Part shown: piece after piece, positions 9,001 through 12,000 of the stretch | Layout: the number at the start of each line of letters is the position of its first letter | How positions within the stretch are numbered: position 1 is the first letter of the stretch | Source of the DNA: a virus | Lineage: Duplodnaviria; Heunggongvirae; Uroviricota; Caudoviricetes | DNA length: 46,608 bases | IMG/VR virus record: IMGVR_UViG_2522572021_000005 | Direction: 5' to 3' (one strand) | Position numbers: made by a program

Positions 9001-12000
9001 TAGTAACGGCCTGAGCGTTCCGCCAGTCCGGCGACAACTGGCGGCCCCCAAACGCCCGTCGGGGCCAACGCCAATTGAGTTGCTGAAACAGGAATATGAA
9101 CGCCGGAAAGCGGCTGGTTTTGTTTGAGTTGAGAAGTGATTTTTTACCGGGAGGAAATTTATGGAGACTGTTTTTGACGCACTGAAAGCGATGGGAAAAG
9201 CCACGTCGGTAGAGCTGGCTGCGCGACTTGATATCAGTCGTGAAGAAGTACTGAACGAGCTGTGGGAACTGAAAAAGGCTGGCTTCGTTGATAAAAGCGT
9301 ATACACCTGGCGTGTGGCTGATAACAACGTTCAGCAGGAACAGCCAGCGCCAGAAGAAACCACCACGGCAACAGAAGCGAAAATCTCAGAGTGCGATTTA
9401 ACCGCGACGATTGAACAACGCGGACCACAAACGGCGGATGAACTGGCTACGCTGTTCGGTACAACATCCCGCAAAGTTGCTTCAACGCTGGCAATGGCAA
9501 TCAGCAAAGGTCGTCTGATTCGCGTAAACCAGAACGGTAAAATTCGTTACTGCATACCAGGTGATAATTTACCAGCAGAGCCGAAAGTTGAATCGGTAGC
9601 GGAAACCGATGGTAAAGCCTTTCCTCAGCCAGCCGGTGTTGCGTTACCGGTACAGAAAGATGCAACACAGGAAGATATTAAAACAGAAACTGTGGCGGAC
9701 ATTGTGCAGTCGCTGCCATCGTTTACTGCAACGCGAGAAGATGATTTGATTTTGCCATCGCTGCATATGGCAAATCGCGAACTGCGTAGGGCGAAGAATC
9801 ATGTCCAGAAGTGGGAGCGAGTCTGCGCCGCGCTGCGGGAGCTGAACAAGCACCGGGATATGGTTGCCGGGATTTGTCGGAAGTCCGGGCAATGAGCGGA
9901 TGGTGCAGGCCTGAAATCATGATACTAACAATGAAGGTAAAATGCATCGGCAGTCTGATTGGTCGTAGTGAGGCGGCGGTCAGGATGAAAGCCCAGGTTA
10001 AGGGAATAAGCCTGATTCTGCGGGGTGATTTTCACCAGTCAACAAAATATCCGTAGCGCGATAACGGTCAAAAATTATGGCGCTGACACTTTTGTGCCAC
10101 TGGAGATGACTGTACCTAAGTTCAGGGGAGAAGAACACGTCCGGTGGGATGGTCGGGCCAGATTTAAAGGGCAGGTCATGGCTCCAGCCTGTACGCTGGC
10201 AATGGAGGCTGCCTGGCGGGAAATTGATATGGGAACCACGCCACTCAGGGATTTACTGCCGGTCCAGAGAATAAATTCCTGTTACGGTTACACCACTGTG
10301 ATCTTGCAAGTGCAGGAAAGTAGGTCTACACGGTAACGCGAGTGCGTGTAACTTTGATGTCATTCCCGTAGAAACACCGGACAAATTTTCGCTGACAGGT
10401 CATGCAGAAGGTATAAATCTGCAGATTATGGACAATTACGGATATCCGGCAAGAGCCGGAAAAAGCATGCCGCCTCTAATTCTCAGTGGAAGATGGACTT
10501 GATTATACTCATTGCATTGTCAGAAATAGTTATCCATTAAAGGCTGGCTATTCCAAACAGGATGTTGATTACAAAAATGTAATCAACATGTAAGGTTTAT
10601 ACTCTTCAATATGCGTATAATTTTCCTTATTTTGTTGACTTTAAATAACAAGCTATGCACGAGGTAAAGTCGGATAAGTTTATCTGGATGTAATATATAT
10701 TATTTGTAGTGTTTATAACTTTATTTCATGATAACCAATAAAAGGAGTTTTTTATGAGGAACATAATGGCAGGTTTTTTAATATTCCTGTCTTCTGCTGC
10801 TTATGCTGATATCAATCTGTATGGTCCTGGTGGCCCGCATACAGCCTTGCTTGATGCAGCCAAACTTTATGCCGAAAAAACAGGTATTATAGTGAACGTT
10901 CATTACGGCCCACAGAACAAATGGAATGAAGATGCCCAAAAAAATGCAGATATCTTGTTTGGCGCATCAGAACAATCTGCTCTGGCTATCATTCGGGACC
11001 ATAAAGACAGCTTCAGTGAAAAAGATATTCAGCCTCTTTATCTGCGAAAAAGTATTTTACTGGTAAAGAAAGGTAATCCTAAAAATATCCGGAGTATTGA
11101 CGACCTGACCAGACCTGGGATTGGCGTAATTGTTAATGATGGTGGTGGTACCAGTAATACATCAGGCACTGGCGTCTGGGAAGATATTGCCGGACGTAAA
11201 GGGAATATAGAAACTGTCGCCGCAATCCGAAAAAATATTATTTTATATGCGCCCAATAGCGGAACTGCACGTAAGGCTCTTGAGAATCAGCCTGGAGCAG
11301 ATGTCTGGATAACCTGGGCTGACTGGGCAGCCAGTAATCCAGAAATTGGTGATGTCGTGGAAATAGCGCCAGACTACGTGATATGGCGTGATATGAACAT
11401 TACAGTACGTCAGGATGCAAATGATGAAACCCGTCGATTTGCAGAATGGCTACAAACCGATGAAGCGGCGCCTGCATTCAAAAAATATGGCTGGACCAGG
11501 AAAGGCACTTGACATCCTCGTCCTTCAGGACGTGGATTCTTTTTCCGGATGCCGCGCCAGCGGCATGTAGGGGCAGCTCACAAAACGGAAAAAATTGTAC
11601 GCTAAGCCTCGCCAGGTGAACTGAATTCATTCCGATATGGGAATTCCCATATCGGGCGAAAACGGTTTGCTGTAACGGCAGAGTTAAGTAGGATTGCTGC
11701 GGGTGCTTGAGGCTATCTGCCTCGGGCATGAACACCAACGGCAGATAGATAAAAGCCCCACCCGACTATAAATCGAAGTGAGGCCCTATATGCTCGTCAC
11801 ATATAGATTGCCTCTTACGGACCGAAAGGTCAAGGAGAAGCAGGCTATGAAGCAGCAAAAGGCGATGTTAATCGCCCTGATCGTCATCTGTTTAACCGTC
11901 ATAGTGACGGCACTGGTAACGAGGAAAGACCTCTGCGAGGTACGAATCCGAACCGGCCAGACGGAGGTCGCTGTCTTCACAGCTTACGAACCTGAGGAGT

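What the first reader, a model, noticed from the sequence alone, without database searches (positions are those of the whole stretch)
10340..11512. Orphan secreted substrate-binding-protein-like gene as a low-GC moron
A 252-aa protein with a clear signal peptide and binding-protein-like features is encoded alone, with no permease or ATPase, behind ~400 bp of AT-rich DNA and followed by a terminator-like hairpin. It sits between the replication and nin-like modules, a typical moron position. A secreted ligand-binding protein expressed from a prophage could act in host-phage or host-host interaction (nutrient or signal capture, receptor masking).
Basis: inference. Interest (0 to 1): 0.55.

Follow-up and report, generated by a model that had tools for sequence, protein, structure and literature searches.

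The report
Known prophage adhesin gene paa (adfO)

Summary
The ORF at 10754-11512 (+) is real and encodes 252 aa. It is paa/adfO, annotated "AcfC family adhesin Paa". Its DNA is 100% identical to a prophage of E. coli O145:H28 RM12581, and the protein differs by one residue (K62Q) from an O157:H7 allele.

- The protein has a Sec signal peptide (AYA|D).
- It matches Pfam SBP_bac_11 (E 6e-34) and is 51-53% identical over its full length to the solved structures of C. jejuni PEB3 and V. cholerae AcfC (E about 1e-80).
- The PEB3 ligand loop SNTSGT is invariant.
- There is no ABC permease or ATPase gene in the 46.6-kb window, beside plasmid-borne variants, or beside homologues in about 20 other species.
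- The gene lies in a roughly 1-kb low-GC cassette (10550-11572) between the replication genes and hok/sok. Related prophages carry other single genes (QueH, an alpha/beta hydrolase) in that slot.
- dN/dS of 0.04-0.09 shows purifying selection.

Two qualifications. About half of the "AT-rich spacer" is a relic of a papH-like fimbrial gene. The terminator-like hairpin is present but not statistically distinctive.

The verdict is already known and of low interest. The one open question is biochemical: whether Paa acts as an adhesin, an anion or organophosphate binder, or a sensor.

The parts
10754..11512 (+). paa (= adfO) coding sequence, 252 aa, a member of the AcfC/PEB3/Paa family
   Evidence: ORF list. 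DNA is 100% identical to the gene annotated 'paa: AcfC family adhesin Paa' in RM12581. Pfam SBP_bac_11 E 6e-34. PDB matches to PEB3 and AcfC at E about 1e-80. dN/dS 0.04-0.09 against enterobacterial variants.
10754..10807 (+). Sec signal peptide (residues 1-18, cleavage AYA|D)
   Evidence: Read directly from the sequence. Mature PEB3 crystal chains begin at the residue aligned to D19. The family alignment becomes conserved from A18-D19 onward. There is no Cys, so it is not a lipoprotein.
11153..11170 (+). Codons for S134-N-T-S-G-T139, the putative oxyanion-binding loop (equivalent to PEB3 T138/S139)
   Evidence: N135, T136, S137, G138 and T139 are invariant and S134 is nearly invariant in 28 homologues. 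The alignment to PEB3 places Paa T136/S137 on PEB3 T138/S139. That these residues bind ligand in PEB3 comes from my own recall of Min et al. 2009.
10743..10747 (+). Shine-Dalgarno sequence AGGAG, 6 nt upstream of the ATG
   Evidence: Sequence. Conserved in the ETEC plasmid, E. albertii and Citrobacter copies.
10594..10753 (+). AT-rich (26% GC) upstream region and presumed promoter region. It includes a perfect TATAAT at 10616-10621 that is conserved in the plasmid allele.
   Evidence: GC value. Conservation with the ETEC plasmid upstream region. The consensus promoter scan found nothing above chance here, so the promoter is inferred, not shown.
11514..11544 (+). Terminator-like hairpin (11514-11537) plus U-rich tail (11538-11544), starting 2 nt after the stop codon
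   Evidence: -13.3 kcal/mol. It is weak statistically (z -1.6) and partly disrupted in the ETEC plasmid allele.
10550..11572 (+). Mobile paa cassette: the only stretch shared between the prophage copy and the ETEC plasmid copy
   Evidence: blastn of window 9500-12600 against the pCFS3246-1 locus gives a single HSP, 10550-11572, at 85.8% identity.
10061..10593 (+). Relic of a papH-like fimbrial minor-subunit gene (frameshift plus internal stop). It forms the left half of the 'AT-rich spacer'.
   Evidence: PGAP annotation. The three-frame translation shows the broken frames. 10089-10552 is 85% identical to an intact gene in pap-like chaperone-usher operons.
11701..12002 (+). Neighbouring hok/sok type I toxin-antitoxin module ('ckf' in the OI-57 literature). 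It is context, not part of the paa cassette.
   Evidence: Rfam sok RF01794, 101 bits, at 11701-11849. hokD CDS at 11847-12002. adfO is reported always together with ckf (PMC8565820).

Best explanation
The gene is paa (adfO), the E. coli member of the AcfC/PEB3/Paa family.

Shown here:
- It is a single-gene cassette of about 1 kb with low GC, carrying its own ribosome-binding site and an AT-rich upstream region.
- The cassette lies in a variable cargo slot of a defective lambdoid prophage, between the replication genes and hok/sok.
- The product has a Sec signal peptide and a class-II periplasmic-binding-protein sequence about 52% identical to the crystallised PEB3 and AcfC.
- The cleft loops are invariant (LYGPGGPH, FGAS, SNTSGT, NSG).
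- No cognate ABC transporter is present.
- The gene is under strong purifying selection.

Taken from the literature: paa and adfO mutants adhere less well (pig ileum for porcine EPEC, HeLa cells for EHEC). PEB3 binds 3-phosphoglycerate, phosphoenolpyruvate and phosphate. AcfC is periplasmic, binds sulfated glycans and mucin, and is needed for chemotaxis to mucin.

Inferred: after export and cleavage at Ala18, the 25.8-kDa protein closes on an anionic ligand, a phosphate- or sulfate-bearing host-derived molecule. That binding promotes colonisation in one of two ways: directly, if some protein reaches the cell surface and binds sulfated mucosal glycans, or indirectly, by signalling or uptake through a host-encoded partner. 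In a lysogen it would be expressed from its own promoter, as a lysogenic-conversion (moron) gene.
For: Identity:
- 100% DNA identity to annotated paa.
- One residue (K62Q) different from the allele of O157:H7 strain SS52.
- Phage records annotate it 'Paa/adherence factor'.

Family and fold:
-.

Orphan status in the window and in relatives:
-.

Cassette limits and cargo slot:
-.

Composition:
-.

Selection:
-.

Distribution:
- 611 of 5426 complete E. coli genomes: 582 places on chromosomes and 36 on plasmids.
- ETEC plasmid copies lie next to sta1 and IS elements.

Literature:
- PMC8565820, PMC9144400, PMC10562709, PMC5976639, PMC3417527 and PMC12469816.
Against: - The biochemical role is unsettled in the literature. 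AcfC did not mediate adhesion to Caco-2 or HT-29MTX cells, and both AcfC and PEB3 are periplasmic (PMC5976639). This sits poorly with a classical surface adhesin.
- No ligand for Paa itself has been established in anything I could read. The primary Paa and AdfO papers are not in the held library.
- Promoter and terminator are not demonstrated.
- Mature Paa is acidic (pI 5.7), which does not favour non-specific binding to sulfated polyanions.
Confidence: 0.85

Rival explanations
1. Paa is a nutrient-scavenging substrate-binding protein. It would deliver an organophosphate or oxyanion (for example 3-phosphoglycerate, as proposed for PEB3) to a transporter encoded elsewhere in the E. coli chromosome. 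The adherence phenotypes would then be secondary effects.
For: - PBP fold and an invariant pocket.
- PEB3 is described as a transporter component for 3-phosphoglycerate and is needed for chick colonisation (PMC12469816; PMC3417527).
- The nearest other solved relatives are sulfate and molybdate ABC binding proteins.
Against: - No permease or ATPase lies next to the gene in any of about 20 species examined, which is unusual for a dedicated uptake system.
- NCBIfam scores are far below the Sbp, CysP and ModA cut-offs.
- A mobile gene would have to dock onto a resident transporter in every new host.
Confidence: 0.15
2. Paa is a periplasmic sensor that feeds a chemoreceptor or another signalling protein, as proposed for AcfC with the MCP-like AcfB. 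It would steer the bacterium towards or within mucus rather than glue it to cells.
For: - An AcfC deletion reduces chemotaxis to mucin and changes intestinal distribution (PMC5976639).
- In V. cholerae the homologue lies directly downstream of an MCP gene with dCache, HAMP and MCPsignal domains (L023).
- In Endozoicomonas it follows an ECF sigma / anti-sigma pair.
- The EHEC adfO mutant also shows reduced secretion of several proteins (PMC8565820), which fits a regulatory effect.
Against: - There is no MCP or signalling gene beside paa in the prophage or on the plasmids.
- Genomic neighbours across the family are heterogeneous.
- No chemotaxis data for Paa appeared in the papers I read.
Confidence: 0.15
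3. paa is a functionally neutral passenger in this prophage. It would be maintained only because it is linked to the hok/sok addiction module and to a successful prophage lineage.
For: - paa is reported always together with ckf/hok (PMC8565820).
- 564 of 613 records carry copies at least 99% identical, consistent with recent clonal spread.
- The prophage is defective.
Against: - dN/dS is 0.04-0.09 between the prophage, plasmid, E. albertii and Edwardsiella variants.
- ORFs are intact in every record sampled.
- Plasmid copies are maintained independently without the prophage context.
- Mutant phenotypes have been published.
Confidence: 0.04
4. Paa serves the phage, for example by masking a receptor or excluding superinfecting phages from the periplasm.
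For: Only its location in a prophage, plus the general precedent that some morons encode exclusion functions (my own knowledge).
Against: - Most family members are chromosomal or plasmid genes of non-phage context in many genera.
- PADLOC was not searched, and nothing in Pfam or PHROGs links the family to defence.
- The invariant small-molecule pocket argues for a conserved ligand rather than a phage target.
Confidence: 0.03

Closest known systems
Paa / AdfO of EHEC O157:H7 (z2053, OI-57 / prophage CP-933O) and of porcine EPEC
   Same: It is the same gene. DNA is 99.9% identical, with one amino-acid difference (K62Q) from the allele of O157:H7 strain SS52. The flanks are the same (DUF1627, papH-like pseudogene, paa, hokD, DUF968, RusA).
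   Different: This copy sits in a prophage beside potABCD in an O145:H28-like genome, not at the ompW site described for OI-57. RM12581 carries two paa places (PMC9144400).
PEB3 of Campylobacter jejuni (PDB 2hxw, 3fir, 3fj7, 3fjg, 3fjm)
   Same: 53% identity over the whole mature protein (E 4e-81). The signal peptide plus D(I/V)NLYGPGGPH N-terminus is the same, as are the SNTSGT ligand loop and the orphan gene context.
   Different: - PEB3 is a chromosomal core gene.
- It is N-glycosylated at a DFNVS sequon that Paa lacks (Paa has DSFSEKD at that point).
- PEB3 K135 is T133 in Paa.
- Ligand data (3-phosphoglycerate, phosphoenolpyruvate) exist only for PEB3.
AcfC of Vibrio cholerae (PDB 4jb7)
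   Same: 51% identity (E 1.2e-80). It is an exported orphan binding protein on a horizontally acquired virulence element.
   Different: acfC is co-transcribed with the MCP-like acfB in VPI-1 (PMC5976639). paa has no such neighbour and is carried on phages or plasmids.
Sulfate/thiosulfate (Sbp, CysP, SubI) and molybdate (ModA) ABC-transporter binding proteins
   Same: Same Pfam family or clan (SBP_bac_11) and remote but significant profile matches (1sbp E 7e-8; ModA about 1e-5).
   Different: NCBIfam scores are 12-23 bits against cut-offs of 62-470. No permease or ATPase partner is present. These are relatives, not family mates.
Bacteriophage morons (lysogenic-conversion genes such as lom and bor of lambda)
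   Same: A single gene of deviant GC inserted between conserved phage modules, with alternative cargo at the same slot in related prophages.
   Different: An autonomous promoter and terminator are not demonstrated here. The same cassette also travels on IS-rich plasmids.

Membership tests
AcfC/PEB3/Paa family (NCBI 'AcfC family adhesin Paa') | Full-length sequence similarity to PEB3 and AcfC | tested here: met
   E 4e-81 and 1.2e-80; 53% and 51% identity over about 235 aa.
AcfC/PEB3/Paa family (NCBI 'AcfC family adhesin Paa') | Cleavable Sec signal peptide followed by the conserved mature N-terminus D(I/V)NLYGPGGPH | tested here: met
   AYA|DINLYGPGGPH. Invariant in the 6-sequence alignment; in 28 homologues Y23-H29 are invariant and N21 nearly so.
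AcfC/PEB3/Paa family (NCBI 'AcfC family adhesin Paa') | Conserved ligand loop (PEB3 T138/S139 within SNTSGT) | tested here: met
   Paa T136/S137 align to PEB3 T138/S139. N135-T139 are invariant in 28 homologues. The ligand role of these residues is from my own recall of Min et al. 2009.
AcfC/PEB3/Paa family (NCBI 'AcfC family adhesin Paa') | Encoded without a cognate ABC permease or ATPase | tested here: met
   None in the window. None among the 35 neighbouring proteins scanned, apart from one complete and unrelated FecCD system.
AcfC/PEB3/Paa family (NCBI 'AcfC family adhesin Paa') | Contribution to adherence or colonisation | not testable with these tools
   Literature only (PMC8565820; PMC10562709).
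Canonical ABC-transporter binding proteins (Sbp, CysP, ModA) | Score above the curated family cut-off | tested here: not met
   Best score is 22.6 bits against a cut-off of 288 (sulfate). For modA it is 18.4 against 62.5.
Canonical ABC-transporter binding proteins (Sbp, CysP, ModA) | Operon with permease and ATPase genes | tested here: not met
Canonical ABC-transporter binding proteins (Sbp, CysP, ModA) | Class-II periplasmic-binding-protein fold | tested here: met
   Established by homology to solved PEB3 and AcfC and by Pfam SBP_bac_11. The de novo model was unusable.
Phage moron | Dispensable insert between conserved modules, with related phages lacking it at the same site | tested here: met
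   Related prophages have DUF977 plus QueH, or an alpha/beta hydrolase, between DUF1627 and hokD.
Phage moron | Base composition deviating from the phage | tested here: met
   ORF GC 0.44, GC3 0.35, upstream region 0.26, against 0.50 for the window.
Phage moron | Own promoter and terminator, with expression in the lysogen | tested here: inconclusive
   A hairpin plus U-tract is present, but terminator-like sites are no more frequent than chance. No consensus promoter was found; only a conserved TATAAT.

The most novel reading that the evidence does not exclude
Paa may not be an adhesin at all. It could be a phage- and plasmid-delivered orphan periplasmic sensor or binder for a conserved anionic host metabolite.

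Its pocket residues are invariant across homologues from many animal-associated genera: Escherichia, Edwardsiella, Aeromonas, Vibrio, Campylobacter, Helicobacter, Francisella, Endozoicomonas, Mucispirillaceae, Desulfovibrio and Cetobacterium. None of these homologues has a dedicated transporter. On this reading the family works through resident partners (chemoreceptors, sensors or non-ABC carriers), and the 'adhesin' label used for about 20 years would be a misnomer.
Probability: 0.3. Interest if true: 0.45.

Novelty: already known. Interest (0 to 1): 0.1.

Why it matters
This result mainly matters as quality control. A sequence-only reader correctly recognised an orphan exported binding protein acting as a prophage moron, and that gene is a routinely typed virulence marker of STEC, EPEC and ETEC (paa/adfO, OI-57).

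The unresolved part is biochemical, not genomic. It is unclear how a transporter-less binding protein with an invariant oxyanion pocket promotes adherence or colonisation.

- The family is far wider than the 'three enteropathogens' stated in 2018.
- It lacks a cognate ABC transporter at every locus examined here.

Tried and rejected
1. Single-sequence AlphaFold2 model: mean pLDDT 40.5, so it was unusable and no fold search was run. Homology of about 52% to crystal structures made a model unnecessary, so I did not spend the large protein-database searches.

2. Primary Paa (PMC166039), AdfO (PMC2346697) and OI-57 (PMC2976316) papers: none is held. Their content is cited only through reviews.

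3. Consensus promoter scan: nothing above chance upstream of paa.

4. Terminator significance: weak.

5. Hypothesis that paa descends from a disrupted transporter operon: rejected. The one nearby ABC system (L017) is a complete FecCD / Peripla_BP_2 iron-type system and is unrelated.

6. Hypothesis that an intact papH-like gene is naturally followed by paa: rejected. In intact operons it is followed by the usher gene. The fragment and the paa cassette abut at about 10550.

7. Fur regulation: reported as negative for z2053 (PMC4382993).
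Full report
**1. Observation**

The region contains a 252-codon ORF at 10754-11512 on the + strand. An AGGAG site at 10743-10747 precedes it.

The N-terminus MRNIMAGFLIFLSSAAYA|DINLY is a standard Sec/SPase-I signal. The crystallised mature PEB3 chains begin at the residue aligned to D19. The mature protein is 234 aa, 25.8 kDa, pI 5.7 and has no cysteine.

GC content falls from about 0.52 in the flanks to 0.33-0.36 around 10400-10999. It is 0.26 in 10594-10753 and 0.44 in the ORF (GC3 0.35), against 0.50 for the window.

A hairpin at 11514-11537 (-13.3 kcal/mol for the 39-nt stretch 11510-11548 that holds it) followed by UCUUUUU starts 2 nt after the stop codon. Such sites are no more frequent here than in shuffled sequence. 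The 56-nt context folds only 1.6 sd better than shuffles.

PGAP annotates 10061-10593 as a frameshifted, stop-containing 'fimbrial protein' pseudogene. So only about 160 bp upstream of the ATG is true spacer.

**2. Identity**

Megablast finds the 2.2-kb region 100% identical in E. coli O145:H28 RM12581 and RM13514, where the ORF is annotated 'paa: AcfC family adhesin Paa'.

- paa alone is present in 611 of 5426 complete E. coli genomes, at 582 chromosomal and 36 plasmid places. In 564 records the copy is at least 99% identical.
- The O157:H7 SS52 allele differs by one nucleotide and one residue (K62Q) and has the same flanking genes.
- IMG/VR holds 45 viral contigs with it, nearly all at least 98% identical.

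Reviews identify adfO (z2053) = paa on OI-57 / prophage CP-933O as an adherence factor that always occurs together with ckf (z2054, a Hok-family toxin) (PMC8565820; PMC9144400). Here hokD (11847-12002) and its sok RNA (Rfam RF01794, 11701-11849, 101 bits) follow paa.

**3. Protein family**

- Pfam SBP_bac_11 matches at E 6.3e-34 over residues 20-247.
- Against PDB sequences the best hits are C. jejuni PEB3 (E 4e-81, 53% identity) and V. cholerae AcfC (E 1.2e-80, 51%) over essentially the whole mature protein.
- A 28-sequence family profile next finds sulfate-binding protein (1sbp, E 7e-8), SubI and several ModA structures (about 1e-5).
- NCBIfam scores for the Sbp, CysP and ModA models are 12-23 bits against cut-offs of 62-470.

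So Paa is a distant cousin of oxyanion ABC binding proteins, not a member of those families.

Fifty-three positions are invariant across 28 homologues. They include LYGPGGPH (21-29), FG.S (69-72), NTSGT (135-139), WED (142-144) and SG (169-170). Paa T136/S137 align with PEB3 T138/S139. From my own recall of Min et al. 2009 (Biochemistry 48:3057), the PEB3 T138A/S139A mutant loses binding of 3-phosphoglycerate and phosphoenolpyruvate.

**4.

No ABC permease or ATPase is annotated anywhere in the prophage. A Walker-A/LSGGQ motif scan of all six frames of the window finds none.

Plasmid-borne variants were also checked:
- About 91% identical copies on ETEC-type IncF plasmids lie next to the sta1 enterotoxin gene and IS1/IS21/IS66 elements.
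- Variants 74-76% identical occur on Salmonella, Citrobacter and E. coli plasmids.
- All are likewise solitary.

A scan of one genome per species found homologues in 29 loci from Escherichia albertii, Citrobacter, Edwardsiella, Aeromonas, Vibrio, Campylobacter, Helicobacter, Francisella, Endozoicomonas, Cetobacterium, Mucispirillaceae, Desulfovibrio, a spirochaete and others. Thirty-five neighbouring proteins were scanned with Pfam. They are heterogeneous:
- the MCP AcfB in V. cholerae;
- an ECF sigma / anti-sigma pair in Endozoicomonas;
- cdtB/cdtC and lpxB in one Campylobacter;
- DnaA, IleRS, integrase, TraT, peptidases and DcuC-type carriers elsewhere.

None is a partner permease or ATPase. 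Only 4 of 32 loci have any ABC-ATPase motif within 6 kb, each more than 3 kb away. The only one of these systems examined (L017) is a complete FecCD / Peripla_BP_2 system.

**5. Anatomy of the insert**

The prophage and ETEC-plasmid copies share only 10550-11572 (85.8% identity). This comprises 204 bp upstream, the ORF and 60 bp downstream including the hairpin. It defines a cassette of about 1 kb. Within the shared upstream part the RBS and a perfect TATAAT (10616-10621) are conserved. No consensus promoter passed the scan, so the promoter is inferred.

Immediately to the left, 10089-10552 is 85% identical to an intact 195-aa papH-like minor-subunit gene of pap-like chaperone-usher operons. 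In those operons it is followed by the usher gene, not by paa. The prophage insert is therefore a mosaic of a fimbrial-operon fragment and the paa cassette.

In related lambdoid prophages the same slot between DUF1627 and hokD holds DUF977 plus QueH, or an alpha/beta hydrolase. This is comparative evidence that it is a variable cargo (moron) slot.

dN/dS between this allele and the plasmid, E. albertii and Edwardsiella variants is 0.04-0.09. The gene is therefore maintained by selection and is not a decaying passenger.

**6. Mechanism**

Steps shown here:
- an export signal;
- a binding-protein sequence close to solved structures;
- an invariant cleft;
- no dedicated transporter;
- mobility as a cassette;
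- purifying selection.

Steps taken from the literature:
- paa and adfO mutants adhere less, and the adfO mutant also secretes less of several proteins (PMC8565820; PMC10562709).
- PEB3 is treated as a binding or transport protein for 3-phosphoglycerate and is needed for chick colonisation.
- AcfC is periplasmic, binds heparin, chondroitin sulfate and mucin, is required for chemotaxis to mucin, and is not an adhesin in cell assays.

My best inference is that Paa is exported, closes on an anionic (phosphate- or sulfate-bearing) host-derived ligand, and thereby promotes colonisation. Whether it does so by direct surface binding, by signalling or by uptake through a resident partner is unresolved. 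I rank direct or indirect ligand-dependent colonisation first and treat uptake and chemosensing as live sub-alternatives of about 0.15 each. A neutral-passenger role and a phage-defence role are unlikely.

**7. Comparison with known systems and novelty**

This is the known gene paa/adfO in its known prophage context, so it is 'already known'.

- The family is much broader than the 'only two other species' stated in PMC5976639.
- Transporter-less context is a property of the whole family.
- The upstream papH-like relic and the precise cassette limits are defined.

None of these changes the picture materially, so interest is low (0.1).

**8. Context of the window**

- The window is a defective lambdoid prophage beside potABCD. 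The window starts at the integrase gene.
- cro, the portal gene and the tape-measure gene are annotated as frameshifted.
- There is no lysis or stx module between Q and the small terminase subunit. Only tRNA-Ile and tRNA-Arg lie there.
- The T3SS effector genes nleL and espN lie at the right end.

Noticed in passing
window 10061-10593: Relic of a papH-like fimbrial minor-subunit gene (frameshift plus internal stop) directly upstream of paa. 10089-10552 is 85% identical to an intact gene in pap-like chaperone-usher operons on chromosomes and plasmids of other E. coli. It abuts the paa cassette boundary at about 10550, so the insert is a mosaic.
   Followed up: yes
window 11701-12002: A hok/sok type I toxin-antitoxin module (Rfam sok, 101 bits; hokD CDS 11847-12002) lies immediately downstream. 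This is the 'ckf' gene that the literature reports as always accompanying adfO.
   Followed up: partly
window 14248-16299: Between the antiterminator Q gene (14248-14937) and the small terminase gene (15736-16299) there are only tRNA-Ile (15133-15205) and tRNA-Arg (15299-15372). No holin, endolysin, Rz or stx genes are present. Together with cro (6900-7126), portal (20170-22753) and tape-measure (25729-28969) genes annotated as frameshifted, the prophage looks defective.
   Followed up: partly
window 37578-43918: The type III secretion effector genes nleL (37578-39926) and espN (40517-43918) lie beyond the tail-fibre genes, followed by IS fragments. This is a typical effector 'exchangeable locus' of EHEC lambdoid prophages.
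   Followed up: no
L038 1957-3222; L039 1957-3495: In related prophages the slot between DUF1627 and hokD carries DUF977 plus epoxyqueuosine reductase QueH, or DUF977 plus a reverse-strand alpha/beta hydrolase, instead of the papH relic plus paa. It is a variable single-gene cargo slot.
   Followed up: partly
L007-L035 (genome-contig scan): AcfC/PEB3/Paa homologues (45-87% identity) occur in 29 species-level genomes from many genera, mostly animal-associated. Examples are Edwardsiella, Aeromonas, Francisella, Endozoicomonas, Helicobacter, Mucispirillaceae, Desulfovibrio and Cetobacterium. This contradicts the 2018 statement that the family is confined to three enteropathogens.
   Followed up: partly
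L028 4459-6753: In the contig titled C. jejuni GB55, the peb3 homologue lies directly downstream of cytolethal distending toxin genes (Exo_endo_phos = cdtB, CDtoxinA = cdtC). From my own recall, this arrangement does not occur in reference C. jejuni genomes.
   Followed up: no
L022 7552-8853; L026 3390-4685 (likewise L031, L027, by length only): Several Campylobacter species have a DcuC-family anaerobic C4-dicarboxylate-type carrier (432-434 aa) within about 1-2 kb of the peb3 homologue. This could be coincidence or a hint of a non-ABC partner.
   Followed up: no
NZ_CP007136.1 (RM12581 chromosome): The paa query has two places in this chromosome. The strain therefore carries two paa-bearing prophages: the potABCD-adjacent one that matches this window, and presumably the ompW/OI-57 one described in the literature.
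   Followed up: no
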